64,000 nt of DNA from an uncultured bacterium (GCA_965233165.1 CBDDRX010000009.1:20209-84208), one strand, 5' to 3'. Positions 9,703 to 63,771 are shown, counted from the stretch's first letter. Notes: a model not told the origin generated them from the sequence alone. Made by a program: numbers and translations.

Positions 9703-11680
<1,978 letters not shown>

Positions 11681-11687
11681 GGGCTCC

Positions 11688-26730: not shown

Positions 26731-26732
26731 GC

Positions 26733-27998: not shown

Positions 27999-30011
27999 CT
28001 ACGCCGCCACCGAGAAGCGCTCCATCCACGCGCCGAACGAGATGATCCGCCACGGCGTGAAGTCGAAGGCGCGCCGCCCGGATTGCACATCCTTGAGGAG
28101 GGAGACGGCACTATCGTTGACGATGCCGCGCGACTGCTCGACAGCCTGCTCCATCCGCCGGAGAAACACGTCCGGCTGCCTCTCCCTCACCCACACCTCC
28201 TCGGGCGTGGCGAAACCCAGCTTGTCCTGCCTGGTGCGCACCGCCTCGGGCAGGATCCCTTTCATTGCCTCGCGCAGCACGCGCTTGGTGGTGCCTCCGG
28301 AGATCTTCATCTCGTCGGGCAGGCCGAGCGCGAACTCGACGAGCCGGTAGTCAAGGAACGGCACGCGCGATTCGATCGAATGCGCCATCGAGTCCCGGTC
28401 CTCCCAGTGCAGCAACATCTGGAGATTGGTCGACGTGAGCTGCTGGTGCGATTCCTCCCGCACGCTGCGAGGGCTTTGGTGCCCGGAGGCCTGCAGGCGC
28501 GAAGTGGGCCGCGCGTCCAGGGCCTTCAGGTTGAGCCAGGCGGGTGCATCGTGTGCCAGCGCTGCGCGACGACGCAGCAGCATTTTCGCGCTTTCGGGAA
28601 GCACGCCGTCAGCGAGCGCCTTCGCAGCCCACGTTGCCGGATAACCGTGCTTGCGCCGCGCGGCGCCGATCTCGGCGGCGAGCTCGAGCCAGCTCAACCC
28701 GAGGAAGAGCGCCGCGAAGCGCGGCCGGAAGAAGCTGTGGTAACCGGCGAGCGCCTCGTCGGCGCCCTGGCCGTCGAGCATCACCGTCACGCCGTCCGAG
28801 GCGGCAAGCCGGAACACGTTCCACTGGGCGTAGATGCTCGTCGAGCCGAACGGCTCGTCGTTGTGCCAGGTCAGCGCGGGCAGCTCGTCGAAGAGGTGTT
28901 CCAGGGAAGGCAGCACCTTGCGATGCCGGATTCCCGTCTGGTCCACGACCTCCTCCATGAAGCGGGACTCGTCGAAGCGCGCCACGTCGGACACCGCGGA
29001 GAAGCTGCGCTGCACCGACGCGGCATCCTGCTCGCGCAGCAGCCGGTTCGCAACGCACACGATCGACGACGAGTCTAGGCCTCCCGAGAGGCACGTTCCG
29101 ATGGGAACGTCGGCGCGTAGCCGCAAGCGGATCGCGTCGGTGAAAAGCTCGCGGAAACCCGCCGCGGCGTCGGCCGGGGAGCCGGCAAACTGCTTCGGTT
29201 CCAGCCGGTACCAGGTCTCGGTCGCAAGCTTCGCGCCCTTGCGCAGGCCATCCAGCCGATCGAGGTCGAGCTCGAGCCGCTCGCCGTTGCGCAGCTGGAA
29301 GACGCCCTCGAACAGCGTTTCGGCCGTGTGGTCGACGATGCCCCAGGCGAGAAAGTCGTAGGCGCGCTGGCCGTTGACCGCTGAACGCCACCCGGGATAA
29401 GCGGCGACCTGCTTGATCTCGGAGAACAGCGTCACGACGCCGTCCTCCGGCACCGCGTAGTAGAGCGGCTTCACGCCGAACCGGTCTCGGGCACAAAAGA
29501 CGCGCCGCGCCGTCCGATCAAGGAGCACGATGGCAAACATGCCATTGAAGCGGTGCAGGCAGTCGACGCCCCACTGCCGGTACGCGGCGATGATGATCTC
29601 GGTGTCGGTCCCGGTCCTGAATTCGTGGCCGAGCACGCGAAGCTCGTCGCGCAGCTCGAGGTAGTTGTAGATCTCGCCGTTGTAGATCACCCAGTAGCGC
29701 CCGTCAGCCGACGACATCGGCTGGTGACCCGCAGCGCTCAGATCAAGGATCGAAAGGCGCCGGTGCGCGAGCGCCGCCACCGAGCTCGCCGCCGGGTCAG
29801 GCAGGCGCCGTCGGGGCGCGTATGGCAACGTGGAAGCAAACGAGCTATCCGGTGTGTCAGGGCCGCCGTACGTGAGCGGCGCCAGCTCCGAGCCGCCGAA
29901 CAGCGTGAACCCCTCGTCGTCCGGTCCCCGATGCCGCACGGCACTCGTCATCGCGAAGATGCGGTCCGCAGGCAGGGGCCGGGCGGAGAAAAGCGCCGTC
30001 AGGCCGCACAT
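27999..30011 (-). CDS. AsnB-type glutamine-dependent amidotransferase, paralogue 1 (with an N-domain insertion)
   Basis: Start at ATG 30011 gives MCGLTALF..., the Ntn Cys2. Also VIYNGEIYNY, RDRFGVKPLYYA and the synthetase-domain loop SGGLDSS. An extra ~45-aa insertion (TLFGGSELAPLTYGGPDTPDSSFAS...) is absent from paralogues 2-4. Confidence 0.85.
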   Translation of the reverse strand: MCGLTALFSARPLPADRIFAMTSAVRHRGPDDEGFTLFGGSELAPLTYGGPDTPDSSFASTLPYAPRRRLPDPAASSVAALAHRRLSILDLSAAGHQPMSSADGRYWVIYNGEIYNYLELRDELRVLGHEFRTGTDTEIIIAAYRQWGVDCLHRFNGMFAIVLLDRTARRVFCARDRFGVKPLYYAVPEDGVVTLFSEIKQVAAYPGWRSAVNGQRAYDFLAWGIVDHTAETLFEGVFQLRNGERLELDLDRLDGLRKGAKLATETWYRLEPKQFAGSPADAAAGFRELFTDAIRLRLRADVPIGTCLSGGLDSSSIVCVANRLLREQDAASVQRSFSAVSDVARFDESRFMEEVVDQTGIRHRKVLPSLEHLFDELPALTWHNDEPFGSTSIYAQWNVFRLAASDGVTVMLDGQGADEALAGYHSFFRPRFAALFLGLSWLELAAEIGAARRKHGYPATWAAKALADGVLPESAKMLLRRRAALAHDAPAWLNLKALDARPTSRLQASGHQSPRSVREESHQQLTSTNLQMLLHWEDRDSMAHSIESRVPFLDYRLVEFALGLPDEMKISGGTTKRVLREAMKGILPEAVRTRQDKLGFATPEEVWVRERQPDVFLRRMEQAVEQSRGIVNDSAVSLLKDVQSGRRAFDFTPWRIISFGAWMERFSVAA

Positions 30012-31141
30012 GGGCGAGCGTCCATTGCCTTCTCCATCGCGGCGAGGAAGCCTGCCTCGACTTTCTCCCAGCAGAGCTCGCGCGCGGCGCGCGACGCGTT
30101 CTCCTTCAAGCGCGCAAGCTCGGCGCCATTCAGCGCGGTCAGCCTCGCCGCCATCTCCTTCACATCGAACGTATGCGCGACGATGCCGCACTCGTACTTC
30201 TCGACCAGGCGCTTCATCTCCGGCGACGGACCTATGGCGACGGCCAGGCGCGCCTGGATGAACTCAAAAAACTTGTTCGGCAGCGCGTAGCGAGCGTTGA
30301 CGCTCGCCGGCGGCAGGATATAGAGCCCGACGTCGTAGGCATTGCTGATGCGGACGATCTCGGCGGTGCGCACCGGCGGGATCACCCGGACCCGCGGCGT
30401 GCGCGCCGCGAGCGCCTTGAGGCGATCCAGGTACGCCGGCTCACCGAGCGTGAGCATCAGATCGAGGGTAAACCGCTCGTCGAGCGCGCCTGCCAGCTCG
30501 ATCATGTCTTCGAGCTTGCGCGACGGCAGCGCCGCACCGTGATGGATCAGACGGATGCGATCCGGTGCAGGGGAGACGGGCTGCAGGTCGGCGAACGGTG
30601 GCGCGCTGTAAACAACCGTGGGTGAAGCCCCGAGCTCGACCCGGTACTGTTCGGCTATGCCGTCCGCTACCGTGGTCATCGCATCCGCTGTCGGGATGTA
30701 CCGGCGGCACAGGTACTCGACATACGGCTGAAAGAGGAGGCGCCAGACGATCCTGTCCGAGAACTCGGTAGGCGCGAATTCATGCGCATCCAGCAGGACG
30801 CCCGCCCCTTTCGCCACCTTCCGCGCCAGCGGCATGGCGTGGATGTCGTTCGCCACCACAACGTCGAACTGCTTCCCGTGGAGAAGCCGCTCGGCCGCCC
30901 TCACCCGGGGCGCGGACCAGTAGCAGTGCTCGTACATGCGGAGACCCAGCGTCGCGCCCTGGACGGCGCGGTCCCACAGGTCGCGCTGCGACGGCACCTC
31001 GACGTAGTTGAGATGGCCGTCCGGCGCCGGGCCGAACCCGAGCACAGTCAGGTCGAACCGGACCGACAGTGAACGGATCTGCCGCAGTACCCGCGGGTCG
31101 CTTGCGATCCTGCTGAAAGACAGGACGAGGGCACGCCTCAT
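29999..31141 (-). CDS. Glycosyltransferase (GT-B), 'GT-X' family, paralogue of 37065..38486
   Basis: 380 aa. It shares DAHEF and YALPNKFFEFIQA with DAHEY and YACPNKLSQYFHA of the 37065 gene. It overlaps the AsnB-1 start by 13 nt. Confidence 0.6.
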   Translation of the reverse strand: MRRALVLSFSRIASDPRVLRQIRSLSVRFDLTVLGFGPAPDGHLNYVEVPSQRDLWDRAVQGATLGLRMYEHCYWSAPRVRAAERLLHGKQFDVVVANDIHAMPLARKVAKGAGVLLDAHEFAPTEFSDRIVWRLLFQPYVEYLCRRYIPTADAMTTVADGIAEQYRVELGASPTVVYSAPPFADLQPVSPAPDRIRLIHHGAALPSRKLEDMIELAGALDERFTLDLMLTLGEPAYLDRLKALAARTPRVRVIPPVRTAEIVRISNAYDVGLYILPPASVNARYALPNKFFEFIQARLAVAIGPSPEMKRLVEKYECGIVAHTFDVKEMAARLTALNGAELARLKENASRAARELCWEKVEAGFLAAMEKAMDARPCAA

Positions 31142-32217
31142 CGCGTCGCGATGAACTCGACGATCCGTCGCGCCGCCGCGCCATCGCCGTACAGCTTTGG
31201 CAGATCGGGTGGAAGCTGCGTTGCGAGCCCTGCCCGGAGTGCCGCCACCAGGGACTCGCTACTGTGCGGCGGTGCGAGCGTGTTAGCGCCGATCTCCACG
31301 AGCTCGACCCATTCCGTCTCGTCGCGCATGGTTACGCAAGGAACACCATAAAAGTAGGCCTCCTTCTGGACACCGCCGGAGTCGGTGGCGACGAGGCTCG
31401 CGTTCTTCTCAAGGACCAGCATGTCGAGGAATCCAACGGGGTCGACGATCTTCAGTCGTGCAGAGCGCCTATCGGCTTTCGCTCCGAGGGCCTTGCGCGT
31501 CCGAGGGTGGAGAGGCAAGACGATGTCGATGTGGCTAGCCAAGGATTCGAACGCTTCGAAAACACTCTTCAGCCGAGCCGAATCATCGGTGTTCTCCGCA
31601 CGATGGACCGTCGCCAGGATGTAGGCCTTCCGCCCAAGGCCGAGCCGCTTCAGGACGTCGCTCGCGCGTTCAGCCCGTTCTCCGAATTGCAGCGCCACGT
31701 CATACATTACGTCGCCGACCAGGTGAACGCCGTCCGTGATCCCCTCTCGCCGGAGATTCTCGACGCTCGTCGCCGTAGGGCAGAAGAGCATCGTGCTGCT
31801 GTGGTCGGTCAATACGCGATTCACCTCTTCGGGCATCGCCCTGTTGAACGATCGCAGCCCCGCCTCGACGTGCGCCACGGGAATGTGCAGCTTGATCGCC
31901 GCCACCGCTCCTGCAAGGGTACTGTTCGTGTCGCCGTAGACGAGAACGAGGTCCGGCCGCTCGCGCGCAAAGAGCGCATCCAGCTTCTCGAGCATCCTGC
32001 CGGTCATCTCCCCGTGAGAGCCGCCGCCCACCCCAAGGGAGTGCGCTGGCCGCGGAATGTCTAACTCCGAGAAAAAAACGTCGCTTAACCCGGGGTCGTA
32101 GTGCTGCCCGGTGTGAATGAGGTCTTCCTGAAGGCCGCGTACCAGCCGCATCGCCTGCGAGACGGCCGCCGCCTTGATGAACTGGGGCCTCGCTCCCACG
32201 ACGGTCGCGATCTTCAT
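31138..32217 (-). CDS. wecB: UDP-N-acetylglucosamine 2-epimerase family (WecB/WbpI-type, non-hydrolysing)
   Basis: Start at ATG 32217 (MKIATVVGARPQFIKAAAVSQAM...), with HTGQHYD and DSGGVQKEA. In context with wbpABDE it could act as the WbpI-type UDP-GlcNAc3NAcA 2-epimerase. Confidence 0.85.
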   Translation of the reverse strand: MKIATVVGARPQFIKAAAVSQAMRLVRGLQEDLIHTGQHYDPGLSDVFFSELDIPRPAHSLGVGGGSHGEMTGRMLEKLDALFARERPDLVLVYGDTNSTLAGAVAAIKLHIPVAHVEAGLRSFNRAMPEEVNRVLTDHSSTMLFCPTATSVENLRREGITDGVHLVGDVMYDVALQFGERAERASDVLKRLGLGRKAYILATVHRAENTDDSARLKSVFEAFESLASHIDIVLPLHPRTRKALGAKADRRSARLKIVDPVGFLDMLVLEKNASLVATDSGGVQKEAYFYGVPCVTMRDETEWVELVEIGANTLAPPHSSESLVAALRAGLATQLPPDLPKLYGDGAAARRIVEFIATR

Positions 32218-33260
32218 GCGAGGTGGCAGCGGTGCTTGTCCATCGTACGGCGGATGAGATCCGCGTTCTGGCGCGTCCACTCCACGGTGCGGGCAAGGCC
32301 CTGCTCCAATTTCGTGCCGGCGCGGAAGCCGAGCTCGCGCTCCGCCTTGGCGGGGCTGCCGAAGCGCTTGCCGGAGTTGTCCCAGGTGCGCCGAGGCCTC
32401 ATCTCCACGCCGCCCTTGCCTCCCGTGGCGGCGAGGATCTTCTCCGCGAGCTCGCGCACCGAGGTCTCGATGCCGCTTGCGATGTTGTAGACATCGCCCG
32501 ACTTTCCCTTGAGCGCGCAGGCGGCAAGTCCGCGCGCAACATCCTCGACGAAGATGAAGTCGCGCGTGCCGATGCCTTCGTTCTCCAGGGGCAGCGGCTC
32601 GTTCGCGAGCGCCTTCCAGATGAAGGTCGGGGTGACATTGCGCCAGACGGTCGCCGGCGTGCCGCGCCAGCGCCCGGCACCCAGGATCTCGCCCGGGCCG
32701 TAGACGTTCTGGAAGCGCGCGCGCACCGTCGGCAGCGCGTGCTGGTTGAAGTAGTACACGGCGTAAAACTCGCCGAACACCTTCGACATGGAATACGGGC
32801 TGTCCATGGAGAGCGAGACGATGTCGGTCTCCTCGGTGGCCTCGGCGGTGCCGAACGTCTTCTCCGCAACAGAGCAGCCGGCGGCCGAGTAGACCACCTT
32901 CTTCAGCCGCTTGAAGCCCTTCAGGCGCTCGAACAGGCGCAGCGTGGTCAGCGTGTTGTGCTCGTGGTCGGCGAGCGGGTCGTGGATCGAGCTCTGGTTG
33001 CCGTGGTAGGTGCTGAGGTGGAAGACGTAGTCGTACTCGTCCTTAAGCCCCGCGAGCAGCGCCGGATCGGCGATCGACGCTTCGCTGAAGGCGACGCGCG
33101 GGTCGGCCGGCACGTTCACCTTCTCCGCCGACAGGAGGTTGTCGACGATGTGCACGCGGCCCGCGCCCTGCGCGAGCACGAGCTTCACGAGGTTGCTGCC
33201 GACGAACCCCGCCCCGCCGCTGACGAGGATCGAGGCCCCTTCGAAGTCGCGCCCGCTCAT
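32214..33260 (-). CDS. NAD-dependent epimerase/dehydratase (extended SDR), first of three consecutive
   Basis: Start at ATG 33260 (MSGRDFEGASILVSGGAGFVGSNL...), with YSMSKVFGE (YxxxK). ATGA overlap with the upstream SDR stop. Confidence 0.8.
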   Translation of the reverse strand: MSGRDFEGASILVSGGAGFVGSNLVKLVLAQGAGRVHIVDNLLSAEKVNVPADPRVAFSEASIADPALLAGLKDEYDYVFHLSTYHGNQSSIHDPLADHEHNTLTTLRLFERLKGFKRLKKVVYSAAGCSVAEKTFGTAEATEETDIVSLSMDSPYSMSKVFGEFYAVYYFNQHALPTVRARFQNVYGPGEILGAGRWRGTPATVWRNVTPTFIWKALANEPLPLENEGIGTRDFIFVEDVARGLAACALKGKSGDVYNIASGIETSVRELAEKILAATGGKGGVEMRPRRTWDNSGKRFGSPAKAERELGFRAGTKLEQGLARTVEWTRQNADLIRRTMDKHRCHLA

Positions 33261-34192
33261 GCGCTCACCTTCGGCGCGGCCAAATGGCTGTGCACGTCGC
33301 TCACGCCGTACTTCCGGTACCAGTCGAGCTGGCGGCGGATCGTGTCCTTGAAGCCGATGCGCGCCTTCCAGCCAAGCGCCGCCGCGGTGCGCGACGGATC
33401 GAGCACCATCGCCTTCACATCGTCCGCGCCCGGCGGGACGACGGGAACCTGCTCCTTGAGCGTGATCCCAAGGTAGGCGACCACCTCGTCGAAGATCTCC
33501 TTTATGGAGTGGCCTTCGCCCGTCGACACGTTGAAGACGCCCTTGGCGTCGCTCTTCAGCAGCAGGTCCATGAGGTCGAGGAAGTCCTGCATGTCGAGGA
33601 AATCGCGCACCGTGTCGCTGCAGAAGCACTTCTGCCCTGCCTGCAGCCGCTTGAAGAAGGTCGGGATCGGACCGATCGAGAGACGCGGGCCGGTGATGTT
33701 CGCGAGGCGCAGCGACACGACCGGCAGCCCGCTCATCAGGAGGTACTGCTCCCCGGCGGTCTTCGAGATGCCGTAGCTAGTAAATGGCGCCACCGGGTGA
33801 TCAACCGGAACCGGCACCCTGGAGGGCCGTCCATAGCAGAGCGCCGTCTGGAAATTCACCAGACGCCGCACGCCCGCCTTCTCGGCCGCCCTCGCGACGT
33901 GGATGCTGCCGGTGACGTTGGTCGCGGCGTCCTCGCGCCAGTCGGCCGGGTCCTTGTAGGCCGCGGCGCTGTGGATCACGATCTCGGGACGCGCCTCGTC
34001 CAAGGTACGCTCGACGAGCGACGCGTCGGCGATCGTGCCTTCCACGACGCGCAGGCCCGGCATCGCCGGCACCACTTCGCGCTTGCCGGTGGCGAAGTTG
34101 TCCAGGACCGTGATCTCGTGCCCCTGCGGCAGCCAGTGCTCGATCAGGTTGGAGCCGAGGCAGCCTGCCCCGCCGGTGATCAGGATGCGCAT
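33257..34192 (-). CDS. NAD-dependent epimerase/dehydratase (extended SDR), second of three
   Basis: Start at ATG 34192 (MRILITGGAGCLGSNLIEHW...DNFATGKREV), with YGISKTAGE. The 126 upstream track codons are shadow. Confidence 0.8.
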   Translation of the reverse strand: MRILITGGAGCLGSNLIEHWLPQGHEITVLDNFATGKREVVPAMPGLRVVEGTIADASLVERTLDEARPEIVIHSAAAYKDPADWREDAATNVTGSIHVARAAEKAGVRRLVNFQTALCYGRPSRVPVPVDHPVAPFTSYGISKTAGEQYLLMSGLPVVSLRLANITGPRLSIGPIPTFFKRLQAGQKCFCSDTVRDFLDMQDFLDLMDLLLKSDAKGVFNVSTGEGHSIKEIFDEVVAYLGITLKEQVPVVPPGADDVKAMVLDPSRTAAALGWKARIGFKDTIRRQLDWYRKYGVSDVHSHLAAPKVSA

Positions 34193-34200
34193 CCCCGCGC

Positions 34201-35139
34201 CTACTTCTTGTCGTCGTGCTTCAGGTGCGTATACCCGCCCTGAACACCGAACTTGCGGTAGTAGTCGACTGCCGCCTGCACAGTGTCGCCCAGGCTGGTG
34301 AACTTGATCTCGCCGAAGTCCTGGAACGTGCGCGACGGATCGAGCAGGATGCTCGGCGCGTCGTCCGGCCCGAGGTCGCGCACCTCCGGCGCCGGATAGC
34401 TCTTGAGCTCCATGGCGGCCACGACCGAGTCGTAGAGATCCTGGATGGCAACGTCCTTGCCCGAGGAGAAGTGGTACGCGCCGCGGCCCTTGCCATCGGC
34501 GGCCTTCACGACGGTGCGCGCGAGATCCTTGACGAACACGAAGTCTCGCCGCGCCTTGGTGACGAAGCACTTCTTCCCCTCCGACAGGCGCTGGAAGAAG
34601 ATCGGCAGCGGCCCGCTCACGTTGCGCGGGCCCACCACGTTGGCGAGGCGGAACGTCACGTAGTTGATGCCGGAATATTCGAGGTAGTCCTCCGCCGCGC
34701 CCTTCGAGATCGCGTAGCTGCTGTTGGCGGGGCTGCGCGGGTGGTCGAGGCGGATCGGCTGGTGCAGCGGCTTCACGCCGTAGATGAGCGCTGTCTGGAA
34801 GTAGACGAAACGCCCGACCTTGTTCTGCTTCGCCGCCTTGACGAGGTTCGCGCCGCCCACCACGTTGGTGAGCGAATCGTTGTACCAGTCCTCGGGATCC
34901 TTGTAGGACGCAGCCGTGTGGACGAGCACGTCGGGCTTGAAATCGCCGACCAGCCGGTCGACAAGCGCCTTGTCCGCGATCGAGCCGATCTCGACCTTCA
35001 GCTTCGGATGCGCGTCGAGGTGCTCGCGACGCCCGGTGGCGAGATTGTCGATGCCGAGCACCTCGTCGCCGCGCGCGAGGAGAGTTTCCGCGACGTGCGA
35101 GCCGACCTGGCCGCAGGCGCCGGTGATCAACACCTTCAT
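34201..35139 (-). CDS. NAD-dependent epimerase/dehydratase (extended SDR), third of three; paralogue of 33257..34192
   Basis: 312 aa. MKVLITGACGQVGSHV...DNLATGRREHL and YAISKGAAE. Confidence 0.8.
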   Translation of the reverse strand: MKVLITGACGQVGSHVAETLLARGDEVLGIDNLATGRREHLDAHPKLKVEIGSIADKALVDRLVGDFKPDVLVHTAASYKDPEDWYNDSLTNVVGGANLVKAAKQNKVGRFVYFQTALIYGVKPLHQPIRLDHPRSPANSSYAISKGAAEDYLEYSGINYVTFRLANVVGPRNVSGPLPIFFQRLSEGKKCFVTKARRDFVFVKDLARTVVKAADGKGRGAYHFSSGKDVAIQDLYDSVVAAMELKSYPAPEVRDLGPDDAPSILLDPSRTFQDFGEIKFTSLGDTVQAAVDYYRKFGVQGGYTHLKHDDKK

Positions 35140-35169
35140 TGAATCTCCTTGAAAATCCTCGAGATTTTA

Positions 35170-41619: not shown

Positions 41620-41621
41620 GG

Positions 41622-45338: not shown

Positions 45339-45379
45339 GGGCGCGCGCCGGGCGCTCGGGCCGCTAGAATTCGCCGCGC

Positions 45380-46363: not shown

Positions 46364-46374
46364 GCGATATGGCA

Positions 46375-47280: not shown

Positions 47281-47299
47281 CGCGGCCCCCCTTTGTTCC

Positions 47300-49432: not shown

Positions 49433-50685
49433 GCTATGCCGAGAAGCTCCGAGTAGATCCGGTCAATGCGCTGGGCTGCGGCCGCCGAGGAATGCCACTT
49501 GAGCGCGAAGCGCCGGCTCCGCGCACCGATCTCCGCGCGCTTCTCTGGGTTCGCGATCAAGTCGCGCAGCACTGCCTCAACAGTGTGCGGCGTGGCGCTG
49601 ATGACGGGCAGCTCGTCGACGTACTCGGGAATCTCACGCCGCATCCCCTCCAGCCACTCAGGTCGCAGATAGCAGATGACCGGCTTGCCGAGCATCATCG
49701 CCTCGCGCGCCGTAGCGCCAAAAAAACCGAATGTCAACATGTCCAGGAAGATGTCCGCCTGGACCTGGTAGAAACGAATGTCCCAGTTCGGCACGCGAGA
49801 GAAGAACATGAGCTCTACCGGCAAGCCTTCGGCTTTGAGCTTCCTCACCAATGGTATGTATACGTGCGTGCTCTTGATGTTCACGCCCGACTCATCAGTG
49901 CGCGTATCGAAGTTGCCTACCGCGTGATACAGCCGCACGGTGCCCAAGGGGAACTGCAACCGGAAGGCGGACGGTACCTCGAGGTCGGGGCGCCATACTT
50001 CCGGGTCGAGGCAATAGAACTCCGGCACCTCGCGGACGCGCGGGTCGACGTTGAAGTCGATGCGGTTGCCGCCAGTGAGGAACTGCACGTCCGCCATACT
50101 GTTGCGGAAGCGGCCCCAACGCTCGTTGCGCTCGTCGCTGCACACTGCAGGGACGTCGCGCCAGCGGCAAATGTCGCACACCGGCTCCGGGCCCCATTTG
50201 CGGAACGACGACTGCAGTACGCCGTCCAAGCAGCCGTTGTTGGCGTAGCTGATTTTCTTGCCGGCGGACTTGAGTACGGCAACCGAAGACAAACCGCGGT
50301 CCGCAAACCATCGGTCGAGCCGGCCGCCAAAGCTCATGCAGTTCGCATTGCTGAAGTGAAAGATGTCGTAGCGCCACAGGGCCACCAGATAAAGCGCGAG
50401 TTGCCGAGCGAGAGAAGTGGACTGGGTGAACCGGAAATCCTCGCCGTGGTAGTACATCTGCGAGCCGTCGTCCGTGTCCCAGTTAAGTACGTCGGTGCGC
50501 CACCCTCGTTCGCGCAGCGCGCGCGACAGGTACCAGGCGTTGTAGTAGGCCTGTCCAGCGAAAAGCACGCCGCATTGGCCGCGCCACCCTGGACGGGCGC
50601 GCACCAGCGGCACGGACACGCGGATCAGCAAGTGCAGCGCGGCGCCCAAGAGCCGATCTAGGAGGCGCTGGAGGAGAGGTGCCAT
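49429..50685 (-). CDS. Glycosyltransferase-like protein (GT-B C-terminal half) with a Cys-rich insertion; start uncertain
   Basis: Frame of ORF 49429..50754. ATG 50685 (MAPLLQRLL...) would overlap the wzt 3' end by 28 nt. The C-terminus FGFFGATAREAMMLGKPVICY...LPVISA is GT-B-like. The central segment has C-x17-C-x2-C-x8-C (GCLDGV...PVCDICRWRDVPAVC). Confidence 0.5.
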   Translation of the reverse strand: MAPLLQRLLDRLLGAALHLLIRVSVPLVRARPGWRGQCGVLFAGQAYYNAWYLSRALRERGWRTDVLNWDTDDGSQMYYHGEDFRFTQSTSLARQLALYLVALWRYDIFHFSNANCMSFGGRLDRWFADRGLSSVAVLKSAGKKISYANNGCLDGVLQSSFRKWGPEPVCDICRWRDVPAVCSDERNERWGRFRNSMADVQFLTGGNRIDFNVDPRVREVPEFYCLDPEVWRPDLEVPSAFRLQFPLGTVRLYHAVGNFDTRTDESGVNIKSTHVYIPLVRKLKAEGLPVELMFFSRVPNWDIRFYQVQADIFLDMLTFGFFGATAREAMMLGKPVICYLRPEWLEGMRREIPEYVDELPVISATPHTVEAVLRDLIANPEKRAEIGARSRRFALKWHSSAAAAQRIDRIYSELLGIA

Positions 50686-51863
50686 TGCGCGTTGAGAAAG
50701 ACGATGCCTACGGCGTACTTGTTGCCACGCGCCCGTAGGTCGAACTGGTGGCAATTGATCAGCGCGGCGAGCTGGTTGTTCATCTCTCGCTCGGCGACCA
50801 CTATGCTCACGCGGTAGCGGCCGCCTGCGAGCGGCAGCGTGGGGAATCCGACCTCGATGCGATGCCGGCCCGGCGCCAAGGTAAGCGGGCCGACGCTATC
50901 GGTTGAGACAGCGGTTACGACGTTCTGTCCGGTGATGTTGAACAGACCTACGCTGACGATCGCCTGCTCGATGGCGCGCGACGTGCGTAAGGACACCGTG
51001 ATGCGCGCCGCGGCGCCGCTCTCAAGCTCCGCGGGACCGCTCACCTCCGTCTCTGTGATGCACGGATCCAAGTAAGCCTGCTGCACAGCGCCGGCGTCCT
51101 CGCGGGCAACGAACGCCTCGTAAGCGTCGCATATGGCGTTCGCCTCGCCGATTCTCTGGACCTCACCGCGCTCGATCCACACCGCTCGATCGCAGTTCGA
51201 GCGGATGGCGTACGGGTTGTGGTTTACGATGATGAATGACACGCCCTTCGCGCGCAGTTCGGCGATGCGGCGGTAACACTTGATCGCGAAGTTGAGGTCG
51301 CCGACCGCAAGCACTTCGTCCACTAGGAGGAGTTCGGGCTGCGTGTGGATCGCTACGGCAAATCCGAGCCTCGCAACCATTCCGCTGCTATAGGACTGTA
51401 CCGGCGCGTCAATCGCATGGCCAAGCTCGCTGAAATCCAGGATGTCGTCGAACCGCAGTTCGACCTCGCGCTCGGTATAGCCCAGCACCGCGCATGCCAC
51501 CTTTACGTTCTCGCGCCCGCTAAGCACGGGGTTGAAGCCGGCGCCCAACGCAATCAACGCGCGTACCGAACCGTGCACTGCGATGCGACCGCCGTTCGGC
51601 TTGATGAGCCCGTTAATCAGCTTCAGCATCGTGGTCTTGCCGGCGCCGTTATGGCCGATCAGGCCGACTGACTCGCCGCGCCCTACGCTGAACGACACGT
51701 CCTTCAGCGCCCAGAATTCGCCTTTGCGGAGGGCGCTCGCCGCCTGGCCCACGCCGGTAAGCTCCTTGCCCACGTCGATGAGGCCGTAGACGAGCGAGCG
51801 CCGCAAGCCACGGCAATAGCGCTTCGACAAGCTCTGCACCTGAAGGACTGGTCCGGAGCTCAT
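50658..51863 (-). CDS. wzt: O-antigen/polysaccharide ABC exporter ATP-binding protein with a C-terminal extension (Wzt type)
   Basis: 401 aa. Walker A GHNGAGKTT, signature YSSGM and Walker B LLLVDE, followed by a ~150-aa non-NBD tail (…ARITVSLRTSRAIEQAIVSVGLFNITGQ…GRYRVSIVVAE…) resembling the Wzt glycan-binding domain. Confidence 0.85.
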   Translation of the reverse strand: MSSGPVLQVQSLSKRYCRGLRRSLVYGLIDVGKELTGVGQAASALRKGEFWALKDVSFSVGRGESVGLIGHNGAGKTTMLKLINGLIKPNGGRIAVHGSVRALIALGAGFNPVLSGRENVKVACAVLGYTEREVELRFDDILDFSELGHAIDAPVQSYSSGMVARLGFAVAIHTQPELLLVDEVLAVGDLNFAIKCYRRIAELRAKGVSFIIVNHNPYAIRSNCDRAVWIERGEVQRIGEANAICDAYEAFVAREDAGAVQQAYLDPCITETEVSGPAELESGAAARITVSLRTSRAIEQAIVSVGLFNITGQNVVTAVSTDSVGPLTLAPGRHRIEVGFPTLPLAGGRYRVSIVVAEREMNNQLAALINCHQFDLRARGNKYAVGIVFLNAQWHLSSSAS

Positions 51864-52711
51864 GCGTCAAGCTTCTCGATGATGACCGGCACCGTGAGCC
51901 GATAAAGGAGCCAGCCAAAGAACAGGCCGGCAGCGCTGACGAGCGAGACTACGAGCGCTGCATGCCAGGCGTTCGCGCCGACCCCGAGCATGAGGTCGCG
52001 GGCGAGCACAATAAGGGGTGTCAGGGGGTTTAGGTCCATGAGGGTGCGCATCATGCCCTGCACAGCCTGCGGCGGATAGGCGACGGGCGCGATGAGCATG
52101 AGCGGCGTTGTCATTGCCCACACCAGCTTATGCACATCGCCAAACAGCGCGCCCGCGGGCACGAGCAGCGTTCCGACCACCGTGCCGAGGAAGAGTAGTC
52201 CGAGAATAGGTGCCGCCACGAGCGCGAACGACGGCTTTAGTGCCACCCCGGCAGCGAGGCACGCGGCCACGACCACGAGCATGCGGAAGCCCAGCGACAC
52301 GAGGACCTGCACCCCGCCGGAGACCAGCAAGGCCTCCTTAGGGAAGTTCACGCGCGCCAGCAGCACCCGATTGCCCTGGAACTGCGTGAGGGGGCCATTG
52401 AGCGCGTCCACGAATGCCTGCCATAGCACCGAGCCGGTAAAGACGTAGAGCCAGTACGGCGTCGCTCCGGTGTCGACCCGCAGCACCGTGGCCCGGTTTA
52501 GCAGGATCCATAAACCCGCGGTGAGGACCACCGGCAGCACCGCCCACAGATAACCCAGCATCGTCTGACGGTACTGCGCGTCGAGGTCGCGTTTGGCGAG
52601 GCGCAGGCCGATGCGCAACGCCGAGCGCATATCGTCGCGCATCTCCGCGAGCAGGCGCCGCGGTTGGCGCAGCGCCGACGCCGGCGTATACACGCGCCCT
52701 TCCCGGCTCAT
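51860..52711 (-). CDS. wzm: ABC-2 type polysaccharide exporter permease
   Basis: 283 aa with six hydrophobic segments and the N-terminal motif AKRDLDAQYRQTMLGYLWAVL. ATGA overlaps on both sides. Confidence 0.85.
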   Translation of the reverse strand: MSREGRVYTPASALRQPRRLLAEMRDDMRSALRIGLRLAKRDLDAQYRQTMLGYLWAVLPVVLTAGLWILLNRATVLRVDTGATPYWLYVFTGSVLWQAFVDALNGPLTQFQGNRVLLARVNFPKEALLVSGGVQVLVSLGFRMLVVVAACLAAGVALKPSFALVAAPILGLLFLGTVVGTLLVPAGALFGDVHKLVWAMTTPLMLIAPVAYPPQAVQGMMRTLMDLNPLTPLIVLARDLMLGVGANAWHAALVVSLVSAAGLFFGWLLYRLTVPVIIEKLDA

Positions 52712-53415
52712 GCGATCTGCCCTGCGAGAATGCGACGCGTTCCGTCGACACCAAGATTCATCAGGGCATCGAGGACGGAGAGCCCGGGCACGAACTCGGC
52801 TCTCCCTTGTTGCAGATACACGGGATGCTGGAAGTCCTGATAAACGAACCGGATACCGGCTTGCTCGAACTGGCCAGGCTCCTGATAGCTGTCCGCGCCG
52901 CCGCCAGACAGGTATGTATCGCCGTCTACCGCGCGCACCAGCGCAATTAGCAGCTCGGTGGCGCTGCCCGCTGCGGAGAGCTCCGACGCCAGCACGATCC
53001 TCGGCATTCTCGGAAGTACCGACCGGGCGACCGAGCGGATCACCTCGAGGTTGTATGCGGCAATGCGACGCTCCGGGTTCACTATAAGCGGTCGCGCGAG
53101 CGCCATGGCCTCAGCGAAATGCGGCGCCCGGCCGTACGCGCTCTCCAGTGTCTTCGACAGCTTCTCGCGCCACTGCGCGGACTCATCGAACTCAACATTG
53201 CCTACTGGTCGCGTACCGTGATAATTGCGCACAATTGGCGCCGTCACCCAGCGCGCCCCCCCATTGATATTAAGCCTCATGCGATTGCTCCAAGTGCCAC
53301 CGGTCTTCTGCTGCTGAACCGTGTCAAGCACGACAAAGACATCGGCGCGGCGCAACTTGTCAAAGTAGCCAAGCCACGGAAAGAAATTCGGCTGATGGAT
53401 TGCGACGACGCGCAA
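52708..53415 (-). CDS. WbqC-family protein (unknown function); start uncertain
   Basis: VAIHQPNFFPWLGYFDKLRRADVFVVLDTVQ is the WbqC-like N-terminal signature. Track start 53484 would overlap the GNAT gene by 65 nt. In-frame TTG 53415 lies 5 nt after the GNAT stop. Confidence 0.68.
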   Translation of the reverse strand: MRVVAIHQPNFFPWLGYFDKLRRADVFVVLDTVQQQKTGGTWSNRMRLNINGGARWVTAPIVRNYHGTRPVGNVEFDESAQWREKLSKTLESAYGRAPHFAEAMALARPLIVNPERRIAAYNLEVIRSVARSVLPRMPRIVLASELSAAGSATELLIALVRAVDGDTYLSGGGADSYQEPGQFEQAGIRFVYQDFQHPVYLQQGRAEFVPGLSVLDALMNLGVDGTRRILAGQIA

Positions 53416-53419
53416 GATG

Positions 53420-53944
53420 TCAGTCGAAGACGATCTGCATGATGTCCATGTCCTTCCATGAACCATCAATAAAGGCGCATTCACGTAGGGAGCCGCATTT
53501 CCTCATTCCCGCTTTCTCATAGCACCGAATCGCAACAGAGTTGTCCGAGAAAACCTGAAGCCACACGCTATGTAGGCCAACATCGTTCTTGGCAAATAGC
53601 AGGCAGGTCTTTATAGCGTCGGTCCCGTGACCCTTGCCGCGCAGATTCGATTCACCGATGCGGATCTGAAATTCGGCCGACCGGTGCACCGGATGCACGT
53701 TAAACAGCTGACAAGTCCCGATGAGTTGTCCTTCCACCCGAATCGCGAAAATGTACAAATCCTGGCGTTTTCTTATTGACTCCATCCAGGCCTGATGACT
53801 AGGGAAGTGCACAGGCGCGTACGGCGCGTTATTCCTGACTAGGTCCGGCTCGTTGATCCAGAGGAACAACTGATATCCATCATCAGGTCCGATGCTCGTC
53901 AATGTCGTCGAACGACCTCTAAGCATGACTTGCTCCTTACGCAT
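53420..53944 (-). CDS. GNAT-family N-acetyltransferase (RimJ/RimL-like)
   Basis: 174 aa. IGTCQLFNV...RGKGHGTDAIKTCLLFAKN...AIRCYEKAGMRKCG. The gene is about 50% GC by hand count, against 62-70% in surrounding DNA. Confidence 0.8.
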   Translation of the reverse strand: MRKEQVMLRGRSTTLTSIGPDDGYQLFLWINEPDLVRNNAPYAPVHFPSHQAWMESIRKRQDLYIFAIRVEGQLIGTCQLFNVHPVHRSAEFQIRIGESNLRGKGHGTDAIKTCLLFAKNDVGLHSVWLQVFSDNSVAIRCYEKAGMRKCGSLRECAFIDGSWKDMDIMQIVFD

Positions 53945-55819
53945 TCACGAGGGCCGGAACGCCTCAAACCAATGTTCGAGGCTGAGCAAAGACCAGATCA
54001 GCAACCGACGATTCTGTAATCCGTTCATGTGCTCGGTGACCAGTGGCACCACGGCACTAGGGTCTAGGACTTGATATATCCGCGCAGACGGCTTGAGGAT
54101 GGTTCTCTGAACAAAATCGATGCTTTCCCCCTTGAACCAGCTAGCATCCGGGGCGGAGAAACCCTGTTTCTCTCGTTGAGAAACCTCCGGTGGAACGTAT
54201 CGCTCCATCAGCTTTCGTAGCAGCAATTTCCCGTCTTTCGCTTTCAAGTACTTTCCGGTCTTGGGCCCCGGCTCGTTCTCGTCTTGGCGCACCGCTTGGG
54301 CAAGGTTGCCGAGCTTGAGTCGGACGGGTAGGCGCATGGCGAAGTCGACAAGGTCATTGTCGAGGAACGGCACGCGCGTCTCGAGCCCGTGCGCCATGCT
54401 GAGCTTGTCCTCCATTACGAGCAGACCGTGCAAGAAGGTCTTGGCTTCGAAGTAGAGGGAGTGGTTGACGTAGTCCTCCGGTCGGGTAAGTTCCTCGGCG
54501 TGCTTGGCAAATACGTCGCGAAAAATGTCGCGGGTCCATACGTGCTGGACGTCGCCCCATATCGGAGCGAGCACGGTCTTGATTACCGAGTTGGGCAGCA
54601 ACCGCTGCCAGAAGGAGTAGTACTTGTCGACGTAGTGCTCGAAGTCGTCGTTCACGACCGCGCGGTAGTAGCGCCACGGGTAGCCGCCAAAGAGTTCATC
54701 ACCACCGCTGCCGGCCAAGGCGACCTTGACGAACTTGCCCGCCAACTGGGCGATGTAGAAATTTGGGTAGCTCTGGCCGACGCGCGGCTCCTCCATGTGC
54801 CAAGCGAGCCGTGGCATCACGCGCTCCAGGTCTCCTGCCTTGAGGACCATCTCGTAATGCTCGGTCTTGAAAAGATATGAGAGCCGCTCGGCAGCCCCAC
54901 GTTCGTCGAACGCTAGCTCCAGTCCCGAAGCCGAGCTCAGATCGAAGCCGCAAGTGAAGCTCTTGATGTACGGTATCTCGCGCGAGGCGAGCGCGGTGAT
55001 CGAGCCTGAGTCGAGGCCGCCGCTTAGATAGGCGCCGAGCTCGACGTCCGAAACGAGCTGGCGCTTCACCGCCTGGCGAAACAATCGATCGAGCTCCTCT
55101 AGGTACGCCGCGTCGTCATCCACGACATCAGGTTCGCGGAAACTGAAGTCCCAATACCGCTGCGGCGTTCCGGGGCGACCACCTTGCCGGCTAATGAGAT
55201 ACGTCCCTGCCGGCAGCATTCGGATACCGTCGAACAACGTACGGTCGGTGAAGAAGTTCTGGAATGTGAGGTATTCCATCAGCGCGGGCTTGTCGAGGCG
55301 CGCGGCGCAGGCCGGGTGCGCGAGGAGCGCCTTTGCTTCCGATCCAAAAAGCAGAGTGTTTGCAACAAACGCGTAGTAGAGAGGCTTCACGCCAAAACGA
55401 TCGCGCGCGAGGGTGACTGTGCGCTCACGCGCGTCCCATACAGCGAAAGCAAACATGCCGTTTAGCCGCAGGAGGCAGTCGGCACCCCAGCAAGCCCATG
55501 CGTTGACCAATACTTCCGTGTCGCTTTTTGAGCGAAACGCGTAGCCGACCTGCTCCAGCTCGCGTCGCAAGTCGGCAAAGTTGTAGATTTCCCCGTTGTA
55601 GACCATGGTGTAGCGGCCATGGTGGTCCACCATGGGCTGCCTCCCGGCTGCGCTGAGGTCGATGATCGCAAGACGTCGGTGGCCTAGCGCGCATGGCCCG
55701 TCAATAAACAGCCCTTCGCCATCCGGCCCGCGATGCTTCACAGCTTCGACCATGCGGCGAAGCACTTCGGCGGCACCGGGGGCGCCGTCTAGATTCAGAA
55801 GACCTGCTATTCCGCACAT
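53945..55819 (-). CDS. AsnB-type glutamine-dependent amidotransferase, paralogue 4
   Basis: Start at ATG 55819 (MCGIAGLLNLD...), with MVYNGEIYNF, RDRFGVKPLYYA and LSGGLDSG. Confidence 0.85.
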   Translation of the reverse strand: MCGIAGLLNLDGAPGAAEVLRRMVEAVKHRGPDGEGLFIDGPCALGHRRLAIIDLSAAGRQPMVDHHGRYTMVYNGEIYNFADLRRELEQVGYAFRSKSDTEVLVNAWACWGADCLLRLNGMFAFAVWDARERTVTLARDRFGVKPLYYAFVANTLLFGSEAKALLAHPACAARLDKPALMEYLTFQNFFTDRTLFDGIRMLPAGTYLISRQGGRPGTPQRYWDFSFREPDVVDDDAAYLEELDRLFRQAVKRQLVSDVELGAYLSGGLDSGSITALASREIPYIKSFTCGFDLSSASGLELAFDERGAAERLSYLFKTEHYEMVLKAGDLERVMPRLAWHMEEPRVGQSYPNFYIAQLAGKFVKVALAGSGGDELFGGYPWRYYRAVVNDDFEHYVDKYYSFWQRLLPNSVIKTVLAPIWGDVQHVWTRDIFRDVFAKHAEELTRPEDYVNHSLYFEAKTFLHGLLVMEDKLSMAHGLETRVPFLDNDLVDFAMRLPVRLKLGNLAQAVRQDENEPGPKTGKYLKAKDGKLLLRKLMERYVPPEVSQREKQGFSAPDASWFKGESIDFVQRTILKPSARIYQVLDPSAVVPLVTEHMNGLQNRRLLIWSLLSLEHWFEAFRPS

Positions 55820-55850
55820 ACGAGCGATGAAGGAGCGACCTGGGGGCCGG

Positions 55851-56609: not shown

Positions 56610-56613
56610 GTCT

Positions 56614-58286: not shown

Positions 58287-58301
58287 CTCAGAATCGGTCG
58301 C

Positions 58302-59297: not shown

Positions 59298-59305
59298 CTG
59301 TTTCC

Positions 59306-60746: not shown

Positions 60747-60772
60747 TTGTTGAACGCGCGATTAGACCCCCG

Positions 60773-62415: not shown

Positions 62416-62416
62416 G

Positions 62417-63736: not shown

Positions 63737-63771
63737 GGAGTTCGCTGATAAGGCGCCAAAAAAGGGCGCGA

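What the first reader, a model, noticed from the sequence alone, without database searches (positions are those of the whole stretch)
27999..55819. Four AsnB-type glutamine amidotransferase paralogues inside one glycan locus
The four genes are 27999..30011, 35170..37065, 39724..41619 and 53945..55819.
- Each starts MCG (Ntn-type Cys2).
- Each has the YNGE(I/C)YN and RDR(F/L)G(I/V)KPL(Y/F)Y glutaminase blocks and an SGG(L/I/V)DS PP-loop.
- They are clearly diverged from each other. Paralogue 1 has a ~45-aa insertion, and paralogue 4 sits in lower-GC DNA.

AsnB homologues in O-antigen loci are thought to amidate uronic acid carboxylates to uronamides. I recall WbpS of P. aeruginosa O6 as an example.

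Four such genes lie next to a complete 2,3-diacetamido-uronic acid pathway. This suggests a glycan in which several distinct uronic acid residues are amidated. Alternatively, some paralogues may have been recruited to a different ATP-dependent amide- or lactam-forming chemistry. One such gene per locus is what I would expect; four is unusual to my knowledge.
Basis: partly seen in the sequence, partly recalled or inferred. Interest (0 to 1): 0.75.

Follow-up and report, generated by a model that had tools for sequence, protein, structure and literature searches.

The report
Four sugar-amidating enzymes, Bordetella-type O-antigen locus
The four asparagine-synthetase-like genes are real, but they sit in a close relative of the Bordetella wbm O-antigen locus, where three such genes and several amidated sugar acids are already documented, so this is a richer example of a known design rather than a new one.

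Summary
Four intact AsnB-family genes, 30-38% identical to one another, lie on the minus strand of one ABC-transporter-type O-antigen operon.

The locus is an orthologue of the Bordetella wbm locus:
- The three SDR genes are 71-76% identical to the B. bronchiseptica wbm genes I take to be WbmF/G/H.
- Paralogue A2 is 69% identical to the AsnB-like gene next to them (WbmI by position) and sits in the same I-H-G-F order.
- WbpA/B/D/E and a WbpI-type 2-epimerase are present.

Each paralogue belongs to its own large subfamily, found in many metagenome contigs, with its own conserved neighbours:
- A2 with WbmHGF.
- A4 with a 4-epimerase-like SDR (53 of 63 assessable loci).
- A1 with the 2-epimerase and GT4 glycosyltransferases.
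- A3 between two glycosyltransferases.

Blocks carrying A3, A2 and A1 together recur in several metagenome contigs. The literature already lists three amidotransferases (wbmC, wbmI, wbmZ) in Bordetella wbm, and it describes O-antigens built from several distinct 2,3-diacetamido-uronamides.

Most likely all four convert the C-6 carboxylate of different 2,3-diacetamido-hexuronic acids into amides. The claim that several copies per locus is exceptional is not, although no second four-copy locus was seen.

The parts
27999..30011 (-). A1: AsnB-family glutamine amidotransferase, 670 aa, with a subfamily-specific insertion of about 37 aa in the glutaminase domain. It is the best match (38%) to the second AsnB-like gene of the B. 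bronchiseptica wbm locus, which by position is probably wbmC.
35170..37065 (-). A2: AsnB-family amidotransferase, 631 aa. Orthologue of the Bordetella AsnB-like gene next to the three SDRs (WbmI by position), 69% identical. First gene of the conserved I-H-G-F cassette.
39724..41619 (-). A3: AsnB-family amidotransferase, 631 aa. Of the four it scores highest on the TIGR03108 model (613 bits, below the 817 cut-off). In the four other contigs examined it is flanked by a GT_e-type glycosyltransferase and a GT4.
53945..55819 (-). A4: AsnB-family amidotransferase, 624 aa, in a lower-GC module. Its subfamily is linked to an SDR335-type 4-epimerase-like SDR in 53 of 63 assessable metagenome loci.
34201..35139 (-). 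WbmH-type SDR (76% identical to the B. bronchiseptica gene; PDB 2q1w, E 5e-164)
33257..34192 (-). WbmG-type SDR (73% identical; PDB 2pzk, E 3e-156)
32214..33260 (-). WbmF-type SDR (71% identical; PDB 2pzj, E 2e-163)
31138..32280 (-). WbpI/WecB-type non-hydrolysing UDP-sugar 2-epimerase
29999..31141 (-). GT4-like glycosyltransferase immediately upstream of A1. The stop/start regions overlap.
25591..27992 (-). Two GT4 glycosyltransferases downstream of A1 (26733-27992 and 25591-26871)
23756..25594 (-). WbpM/WlbL-like membrane nucleotide-sugar dehydratase (43% identical to the Bordetella WlbL-position gene). Last gene of the operon.
37065..39727 (-). Two GT4 glycosyltransferases between A3 and A2: 38483-39727 (414 aa; its ATG overlaps the A3 stop codon) and 37065-38480 (471 aa). 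They are 61% and 52% identical to the two GT4s at the same position in L166. The earlier 'unk243' ORF was a wrong-frame call.
41622..44142 (-). Unknown 393-aa protein plus an MBOAT O-acyltransferase broken by a 1-nt frameshift. This pair is absent from the syntenic contigs L166, L167 and L169.
44142..50754 (-). Polymerisation and termination genes: GT_e (44142-45389), unknown 346 aa, methyltransferase (56% to the Bordetella MT), a 710-aa protein with a C-terminal methyltransferase domain, and GT_f (55% to the Bordetella 429-aa protein)
50658..52711 (-). Wzt (ABC ATPase with a Wzt_C carbohydrate-binding domain) and Wzm (ABC-2 permease)
52708..53944 (-). WbqC-like protein (51% to the Bordetella WbqC-family gene) and a GNAT acetyltransferase, directly downstream of A4
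55851..59309 (-). Upstream partners of A4: unknown 252 aa, methyltransferase, SDR291, and SDR335. SDR335 is 4-epimerase-like; its best PDB matches are WbgU, WbpP and MoeE5-type enzymes.
59306..63802 (-). WbpE (59306-60421), WbpD/WlbB (60773-61357), WbpB/WlbA (61357-62415) and WbpA-type dehydrogenase (62417-63802). Together these form the UDP-GlcNAc3NAcA pathway.

Best explanation
The window carries a Bordetella wbm-type, ABC-transporter-dependent O-antigen operon (about 23.7-63.8 kb, all on the minus strand). It builds a polymer of 2,3-diacetamido-2,3-dideoxy-hexuronic acids.

**Proposed mechanism for all four paralogues**
- The N-terminal Cys2 domain hydrolyses glutamine.
- The ammonia travels to the PP-loop domain.
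- There ATP adenylates the C-6 carboxylate of a 2,3-diacetamido-hexuronic acid, most likely as the UDP-sugar, and ammonia displaces AMP to give the uronamide.

**Proposed division of labour, inferred from conserved gene neighbourhoods**
- A2 (= WbmI) acts on the L-galacto sugar made by WbmF/G/H.
- A4 acts on the product of the 4-epimerase-like SDR335. In many other loci this step includes a further aminotransferase, which would give a 4-amino sugar.
- A1 acts on the manno sugar made by the 2-epimerase.
- A3 acts on the gluco sugar, or on another residue added by its flanking glycosyltransferases.

**What is shown and what is inferred**
- Shown: family membership, catalytic motifs, orthology and synteny with Bordetella, and conserved cassettes.
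- Inferred: the uronate substrate, action at the nucleotide-sugar level, and which isomer each enzyme takes.
For: - **Family and catalytic motifs.**
- **Orthology to B. bronchiseptica wbm.** WbmF/G/H-type SDRs are 71-76% identical and A2 is 69% identical to the WbmI-position gene, in the same I-H-G-F order. The WbqC-like gene (51%), a methyltransferase (56%), the 429-aa protein (55%) and the WlbL-like gene (43%) also match.
- **Literature on the SDRs.** wbmF/G/H convert UDP-ManNAc3NAcA to UDP-GalNAc3NAcA (PMC3849452).
- **Literature on the amidotransferases.** wbmC, wbmI and wbmZ are the three candidate amidotransferases for the C-6 amide (PMC2615507).
- **Known glycan structures.** Bordetella glycans hold several distinct diacetamido-uronamides.
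- **Genetic evidence.** Deleting the AsnB-like wbpS gene downstream of wbpE abolishes the uronamide in P. gingivalis. The H. pullorum wbpS mutant phenotype is discussed there as consistent with loss of HexNAcAN synthesis.
- **A2 cassette.** A2-H-G-F(-2-epimerase) is conserved in L004, L018, L019, L084, L085, L166 and L081.
- **A4 cassette.** SDR335-(DegT)-A4 is present in 53 of 63 assessable metagenome loci.
- **A1 neighbourhood.** An A1-type gene lies directly next to the 2-epimerase in L085, L124, L167, L168, L169 and the P0260 contig.
- **A3 neighbourhood.** GT_e-A3-GT4 is conserved in L166, L167, L169 and the P0260 contig.
- **Four separate clades.** The four fall in four separate, well-populated clades. 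Bordetella WbmI falls inside the A2 clade.
- **Precursor pathway.** The full WbpA/B/D/E/I pathway is present.
Against: - No enzyme of any of these four subfamilies has been assayed in vitro. Even in Bordetella the roles of wbmC/I/Z are only 'candidate'.
- The isomer assignments rest on gene adjacency alone. The 2-epimerase is also needed upstream of WbmF, so its adjacency to A1 is ambiguous.
- A2-type genes sometimes occur without WbmFGH (L001-L003, L028, L168). WbmFGH sometimes occur with only an A4-type gene within the fetched +-10 kb (L133, L135).
- The tight pairing of A1 and A3 with glycosyltransferases fits action on lipid-linked intermediates equally well.
- The glycan made by this organism is unknown.
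- All four pass NCBI's generic 'asparagine synthase' model.
Confidence: 0.65

Rival explanations
1. The same amide-forming chemistry, but at a later stage. Each amidotransferase works with its neighbouring glycosyltransferase on the undecaprenyl-linked growing chain or the finished polymer, not on UDP-sugars.
For: - The A3 stop codon overlaps the start of a GT4.
- A1 is sandwiched between GT4 genes with overlapping ends.
- The GT-AsnB-GT arrangement recurs in L166, L167, L169 and the P0260 contig.
- King et al. state they cannot exclude the completed chain as the substrate.
Against: - A2 and A4 are coupled to nucleotide-sugar-modifying SDRs rather than to glycosyltransferases.
- The same paper argues that a sugar-nucleotide substrate is more likely.
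- In the H. pullorum wbpS mutant the glycan is truncated. This is interpreted as the next transferase needing the amidated donor or acceptor.
Confidence: 0.2
2. One or more paralogues, most plausibly A4 or A3, carry out a different ATP-dependent reaction. Candidates are amidating a carboxyl group on an N-acyl substituent, or forming a hydroxamate-, amidine- or lactam-type linkage.
For: - The closest solved structure to A3 is a hydroxyamidotransferase (7ylz, E 4e-77), ahead of E. coli AsnB.
- The position of E. coli AsnB Glu348 is Q, Q, D and S in A1-A4.
- A4 sits beside GNAT, WbqC-like, methyltransferase and unknown genes that probably decorate a terminal sugar.
Against: - All four keep the Cys2, Arg, Asn-Gly-Glu and Asp glutaminase residues and the PP-loop.
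- Scores on the lasso-cyclase and macrolactam models are far below their cut-offs.
- The conserved partner of A4 is the SDR, not the GNAT or WbqC-like gene.
- Known Bordetella caps are themselves uronamides.
Confidence: 0.12
3. They are redundant housekeeping asparagine synthetases that merely lie within the locus.
For: All four exceed the cut-off of TIGR01536, 'asparagine synthase (glutamine-hydrolyzing)', and public sources name their homologues that way.
Against: - All four score below the cut-off of the AsnB equivalog NF006949 (238-338 bits against 499).
- They are co-oriented with glycan genes and have overlapping stop/start codons with them.
- Each subfamily has conserved glycan-gene neighbours across many unrelated contigs.
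- The Glu348 equivalent is not conserved.
Confidence: 0.03

Closest known systems
Bordetella bronchiseptica / B. parapertussis wbm O-antigen locus (wbmA-wbmZ; amidotransferase candidates wbmC, wbmI, wbmZ)
   Same: - Uses the ABC-transporter (Wzm/Wzt) route.
- The WbmI-H-G-F block is in the same order, at 69-76% identity.
- WbqC-like, methyltransferase, 429-aa and WlbL-like proteins are 43-56% identical.
- There are multiple AsnB-type genes in one locus.
- A second AsnB-like gene sits next to GT4 genes near the WlbL end.
   Different: - Four AsnB-type genes here, against three reported in Bordetella.
- No WbmE-like periplasmic deamidase and no formyltransferases.
- A1 is only 38% identical to the Bordetella second copy and carries an extra insertion of about 37 aa.
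- A 2-epimerase and the WbpA/B/D/E genes lie inside the operon.
- All genes are on one strand.
- An added MBOAT module is present.
- I could not retrieve the wbmZ region to compare it with A3 and A4.
Bordetella hinzii O-antigen
   Same: - It is a polymer made only of amidated 2,3-diacetamido-hexuronic acids of more than one configuration, capped by a 4-O-methylated residue.
- The window has methyltransferases plus a Wzt with a C-terminal cap-binding domain.
- B. hinzii has an A2/WbmI-type protein 69% identical to A2 (P0213).
   Different: - The glycan of the window's organism is unknown.
- I did not examine the B. hinzii locus itself.
WbpS (P. aeruginosa O6), WbqG (E. coli O121), PGN_1234 (P. 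gingivalis): single AsnB-like uronamide-forming enzymes
   Same: - Same protein family and the same proposed reaction, uronate to uronamide.
- PGN_1234 sits downstream of wbpE and acts on a 2,3-di-N-acyl-glucuronic acid. This resembles the position of A4 downstream of WbpE and SDR335.
   Different: - Those loci carry one copy each.
- I could not compare sequences directly, because none of these sequences was available in the tools.
- They are said to belong to the eps_aminotran_1 (TIGR03108) family, whose cut-off none of the four reaches.
XrtA/PEP-CTERM-associated amidotransferase (TIGR03108)
   Same: A3 aligns end to end with the model (613 bits). A4 scores 463 bits.
   Different: - All four score below the 817-bit cut-off.
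- No exosortase or PEP-CTERM genes are present in the window.

Membership tests
AsnB family (class II / Ntn glutamine amidotransferase fused to a PP-loop synthetase) | N-terminal nucleophile Cys directly after the initiator Met | tested here: met
   All four begin with MCG. Homologues have matching lengths, which supports these start codons.
AsnB family (class II / Ntn glutamine amidotransferase fused to a PP-loop synthetase) | Glutaminase residues equivalent to E. coli AsnB Arg49, Asn74-Gly-Glu76 and Asp98, plus the SGGxDS PP-loop | tested here: met
   An alignment with E. coli AsnB fragments shows H(R/L)RL(S/A)I, YNGE and (S/T)DTE in all four, and SGG(L/I/V)DS. Pfam GATase_7 plus Asn_synthase hit all four, and all exceed the TIGR01536 cut-off.
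Housekeeping asparagine synthetase B (NF006949 equivalog) | Score at or above the curated cut-off of 499 bits | tested here: not met
   Scores are 238, 299, 338 and 290 bits.
Housekeeping asparagine synthetase B (NF006949 equivalog) | Conserved Glu348 (SGEGSDE). Its importance for acyl-adenylate formation is from my own memory of the literature, not from a tool result. | tested here: not met
   The position is Q (A1), Q (A2), D (A3) and S (A4).
Bordetella WbmI orthologue group (applies to A2) | High identity to the Bordetella protein, and position at the head of the WbmH-G-F genes | tested here: met
   A2 is 69% identical over its full length to B. bronchiseptica P0233. The gene order I-H-G-F is the same. 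Bordetella WbmI falls inside the A2 clade.
Bordetella WbmC orthologue group (applies to A1) | Reciprocal best match and a shared neighbourhood | tested here: inconclusive
   The two are reciprocal best hits but only 38% identical. The Bordetella protein lacks the A1 insertion and branches outside the A1 clade. Both lie next to GT4 genes near the WlbL-like gene.
Bordetella WbmZ orthologue group (would apply to A3 or A4) | Sequence identity to WbmZ | not testable with these tools
   The wbmZ region lies beyond the 10-kb flank of L081-L083. No wbmZ sequence could be retrieved.
XrtA/PEP-CTERM system amidotransferase (TIGR03108) | Score at or above 816.9 bits, and an associated exosortase system | tested here: not met
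   The best score is A3 at 613 bits. No exosortase is present in the window.
Lasso-peptide cyclase, beta-lactam synthetase and macrolactam cyclase branches | Score at or above the curated cut-off. These branches typically lack the N-terminal Cys glutaminase. | tested here: not met
   NF033535 scores 228-308 bits against a cut-off of 525. NF033561 scores 64-97 against 300. All four retain Cys2.
WbpS/WbqG-type uronamide-forming amidotransferases | Demonstrated requirement for uronamide formation in the glycan | not testable with these tools
   This needs genetics or biochemistry. The only support is by analogy with published mutants.

The most novel reading that the evidence does not exclude
The four paralogues form a complete, substrate-partitioned set. 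Each is dedicated to a different stereoisomer or derivative of UDP-2,3-diacetamido-hexuronate: gluco, manno, L-galacto, and D-galacto or 4-amino. The cell could then build a fully amidated, uncharged hetero-polyuronamide O-antigen. The locus would be a natural panel for settling the substrate specificity of the WbmC/I/Z-type enzymes, which has never been demonstrated.
Probability: 0.3. Interest if true: 0.5.

Novelty: new member of a known kind. Interest (0 to 1): 0.3.

Why it matters
Uronamide formation removes negative charge from a surface polysaccharide. In Bordetella this is regulated and linked to virulence.

The enzymes that make the amides in diacetamido-uronic acid glycans have never been assayed. 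Even for Bordetella, the three candidates are unassigned.

This locus, with the conserved cassettes found here (A2 with WbmHGF; A4 with a 4-epimerase-like SDR, with or without an aminotransferase; A1 with the 2-epimerase), gives concrete, testable substrate predictions for four widespread subfamilies. These subfamilies are currently all annotated as 'asparagine synthase'.

It does not reveal a new type of system.

Tried and rejected
- **Exact-sequence look-ups.** Look-ups of A2, A4 and P0001 (identical to A1) found no contig. The source organism is therefore unresolved. The best genome hits for A2 are an uncultured Burkholderiales MAG (73%) and Castellaniella (66%).
- **Genome scan.** The scan did not return B. 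bronchiseptica. I suspect the species representative lacks wbm, but did not check. The Bordetella locus was reached instead through the protein search plus a contig look-up.
- **wbmZ.** The wbmZ region was out of reach, so A3 and A4 could not be compared with it.
- **NCBIfam.** It has no specific WbpB/D/E models. PDB sequence matches were used instead.
- **Corrected gene call.** My first call of a 243-aa 'unknown' ORF after A3 was wrong. tblastn with L166, L167 and L169 proteins showed an intact 414-aa GT4 in another frame, and a shorter start for the next GT4.
- **RNA scans.** Rfam at gathering threshold and the tRNA scan found nothing in the window.
- **Housekeeping role.** Considered and rejected (see rival explanations).
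- **Exosortase-associated role.** Rejected on score and on the absence of exosortase genes.
- **Not attempted.**
  - Structure prediction, because it would not decide the substrate.
  - A sequence comparison with WbpS, WbqG and WbtH, because no sequences were available.

Full report
**Observation**

The four ORFs at 27999-30011, 35170-37065, 39724-41619 and 53945-55819 (minus strand) translate cleanly and begin with MCG. Each has Pfam GATase_7/GATase_6 plus Asn_synthase domains and exceeds the cut-off of NCBIfam TIGR01536.

None reaches the cut-off of these models:
- the E. coli-type AsnB equivalog (NF006949);
- the XrtA/PEP-CTERM amidotransferase (TIGR03108; the best score is A3 at 613 bits against 817);
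- the N-acetylglutaminylglutamine amidotransferase;
- the lasso-peptide and macrolactam cyclases.

The four are 30-38% identical to one another, and tblastn finds no fifth copy in the window.

An alignment with E. coli AsnB fragments shows the glutaminase Arg, Asn-Gly-Glu and Asp residues and the PP-loop conserved in all four. The position of E. coli Glu348 is Q, Q, D and S.

The A1 'insertion' is about 36-38 aa in the glutaminase domain. It is shared by hundreds of 668-680-aa homologues. A4 has its own C-terminal insertion of about 22 aa.

A4 (59.6% GC) and its module (58.7%) are indeed lower in GC than the rest of the locus.

**Context**

The left part of the window holds ntrC/ntrB, glnA, thiC, tolC and LPS-core glycosyltransferases, including a GT9 heptosyltransferase.

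From about 23.7 kb to the right end, every gene is on the minus strand with short or overlapping junctions. In transcription order:
1. WbpA-, WbpB-, WbpD- and WbpE-type genes
2. SDR335, SDR291, a methyltransferase, an unknown gene
3. A4
4. GNAT, a WbqC-like gene
5. Wzm, Wzt (with a Wzt_C domain)
6. a GT, a 710-aa methyltransferase protein, a methyltransferase, an unknown gene, a GT
7. MBOAT (frameshifted), an unknown gene
8. A3
9. GT4, GT4
10. A2
11. three SDRs
12. a 2-epimerase
13. a GT4-like gene
14. A1
15. GT4, GT4
16. a WbpM-like gene

The Wbp assignments rest on strong matches to solved enzymes:
- 3q2i / 3q2k, E 2e-179;
- 3mqg, E 9e-98;
- 'Aminotransferase WbpE' 3nyu, E 5e-132.

**What the locus is**

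The three SDRs match three Bordetella bronchiseptica structures at E 1e-156 to 1e-164 (2pzj, 2pzk, 2q1w). The names WbmF, WbmG and WbmH for these entries are from my memory of King et al. 2007.

A2 is 69% identical to a B. bronchiseptica protein (P0233) and to a B. hinzii protein. Fetching the Bordetella contig showed this gene order:
- formyltransferases
- a WbqC-family gene
- a 429-aa protein
- two ABC ATPases and an ABC-2 permease
- a methyltransferase
- an 892-aa GT
- the AsnB-like gene (WbmI by position)
- three SDRs
- a 282-aa gene on the opposite strand (the WbmE position)
- a second AsnB-like gene
- two GT4-like genes
- a WlbL-like gene

Identities between window and Bordetella proteins:

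| Window protein | Bordetella counterpart | Identity |
|---|---|---|
| SDR H | WbmH-type | 76% |
| SDR G | WbmG-type | 73% |
| SDR F | WbmF-type | 71% |
| A2 | WbmI position | 69% |
| methyltransferase | methyltransferase | 56% |
| GT_f | 429-aa protein | 55% |
| WbqC-like | WbqC-family gene | 51% |
| WbpM-like | WlbL-like | 43% |
| A1 | second AsnB-like gene (reciprocal best) | 38% |

The window therefore contains a wbm-type locus.

**What is already known about such loci**

- King et al. [quoted passage not shown]
- The same paper describes the O-chain as an L-GalNAc3NAcA homopolymer that is partly amidated. It is capped by a GalN3N4NAN derivative. It is joined through a linker containing ManNAc3NAcAN-GalNAc3NAcAN-GalNAc.
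- WbmF/G/H convert UDP-ManNAc3NAcA to UDP-GalNAc3NAcA (PMC3849452).
- The B. hinzii O-antigen is a fully amidated GlcNAc3NAcAN-GlcNAc3NAcAN-GalNAc3NAcAN repeat with a 4-O-methylated cap (PMC12041961).
- AsnB-like WbpS homologues are genetically required for uronamide formation in P. gingivalis, where the gene lies downstream of wbpE and the sugar is a 2,3-di-N-acyl-glucuronic acid (PMC7468200). The H. pullorum wbpS mutant is interpreted the same way (PMC6025236).

**Each paralogue is a member of its own old, widespread subfamily with its own neighbours**

A neighbour-joining tree separates four well-populated clades, and Bordetella WbmI falls inside the A2 clade.

- **A2 type.** Homologues are 70-82% identical across many metagenomes. 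They head an A2-H-G-F(-2-epimerase) cassette in L004, L018, L019, L084, L085 and L166.
- **A4 type.** Homologues (63-71% identical; 80 metagenome loci) have an SDR335 orthologue within 2.6 kb upstream on the same strand in 53 of 63 assessable loci. It is directly adjacent in 19, has a DegT aminotransferase in between in 30, and has other genes in between in 4. The module usually follows WbpB-D-E. SDR335 resembles sugar 4-epimerases such as WbgU, WbpP and MoeE5. L094 carries nearly the whole window module: SDR335 82%, A4 70%, methyltransferase, SDR291, the unknown gene, GNAT, WbqC-like, GT_f.
- **A1 type.** These genes lie directly beside the 2-epimerase in L085, L124, L167, L168, L169 and the P0260 contig.
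- **A3 type.** These genes are flanked by a GT_e-type and a GT4-type transferase in L166, L167, L169 and the P0260 contig.

**How unusual is four?**

- Among 80 AsnB-like loci from diverse representative genomes (+-10 kb each), 19 have at least two copies and 5 have at least three.
- Blocks with A3, A2 and A1 types together, in nearly the window's order, occur in L167, L169 and the P0260 contig. L004, L018 and L019 also carry three.
- The window's four copies are therefore the sum of a recurrent triple block and the separately recurrent SDR335-A4 module.
- I did not find another contig with all four, but the 10-kb flanks could not have shown one. Only 7 of the 80 A4-centred loci had a second copy in range.

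**Mechanism**

The best reading is that all four use the standard AsnB mechanism on a sugar carboxylate:
1. Cys2-dependent hydrolysis of glutamine.
2. Transfer of ammonia to the synthetase domain.
3. ATP-dependent adenylation of the carboxylate.
4. Formation of the amide.

The proposed division of labour (A2: L-galacto; A4: the SDR335 product; A1: manno; A3: gluco or another residue) is an inference from adjacency and is the weakest step.

The main rival is the same chemistry on lipid-linked intermediates, in partnership with the flanking glycosyltransferases. Different chemistry, or housekeeping asparagine synthesis, is unlikely for the reasons listed under rival explanations.

**Verdict**

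- The chemical interpretation is supported by orthology and by the literature.
- The claim of exceptionality is weakened by the three-copy Bordetella locus already in the literature and by recurrent triple blocks in metagenomes.
- This is a new, somewhat richer member of a known kind of locus. Its value is in offering testable substrate assignments for enzymes that are still uncharacterised biochemically.

Noticed in passing
window 42683-44142 (-), junction near 43276-43296: The MBOAT O-acyltransferase is split into two ORFs. The DNA reads TTCTGCGCCGCTGGCAC where the conserved F-W-R-R-W-H motif would need TTCTGGCGCCGCTGGCAC. That is a 1-nt deletion just before the conserved His, so this is either a pseudogene or an assembly error. 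The MBOAT plus the unknown 393-aa gene are absent from the syntenic contigs L166, L167 and L169.
   Followed up: partly
window 11565-11683 (-): A TPP riboswitch lies upstream of thiC. It scores 52.9 bits, just under Rfam's gathering score of 54.3, so the default scan misses it. It overlaps the first ATG of the thiC ORF, so the true thiC start is probably further downstream.
   Followed up: partly
window 38483-39727 and 37065-38480 (-): The mechanical ORF list is misleading here. The real genes are two GT4 glycosyltransferases of 414 and 471 aa. The ATG of the first overlaps the A3 stop codon, and the stop codon of the second overlaps the A2 start codon, which suggests translational coupling along A3-GT4-GT4-A2.
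   Followed up: yes
A1-A4, alignment column of E. coli AsnB Glu348 (SGEGSDE motif): The glutamate is replaced by Q (A1, A2, and both Bordetella copies), D (A3) and S (A4). This may be a sequence marker that separates sugar-acid amidotransferases from true asparagine synthetases.
   Followed up: no
metagenome loci L097, L099, L103, L133, L135 and others (30 of 63 assessable): In most A4-type loci a second DegT aminotransferase sits between the SDR335 orthologue and the amidotransferase. That suggests a route to a 4-amino (2,3,4-triamino) uronamide like the Bordetella cap sugar. The window lacks this aminotransferase.
   Followed up: partly
L133 and L135: WbmH-G-F orthologues occur here with an A4-type amidotransferase and no A2/WbmI-type gene within the fetched +-10 kb. 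The pairing of A2 with WbmFGH is therefore common but may not be obligatory.
   Followed up: no
window 52708-58286: The module around A4 (WbqC-like, GNAT, A4, unknown gene, methyltransferase, SDR291) is 58.7% GC, against 64% for the locus and 68.5% for the left third of the window. This is consistent with separate acquisition of this module.
   Followed up: no
window 1-64000 compared with Bordetella locus L081: The window has no homologue of the 282-aa gene at the Bordetella WbmE (periplasmic deamidase) position, and none of the Bordetella formyltransferases. If the polymer is amidated, it may stay fully amidated unless a deamidase is encoded elsewhere in the genome.
   Followed up: partly
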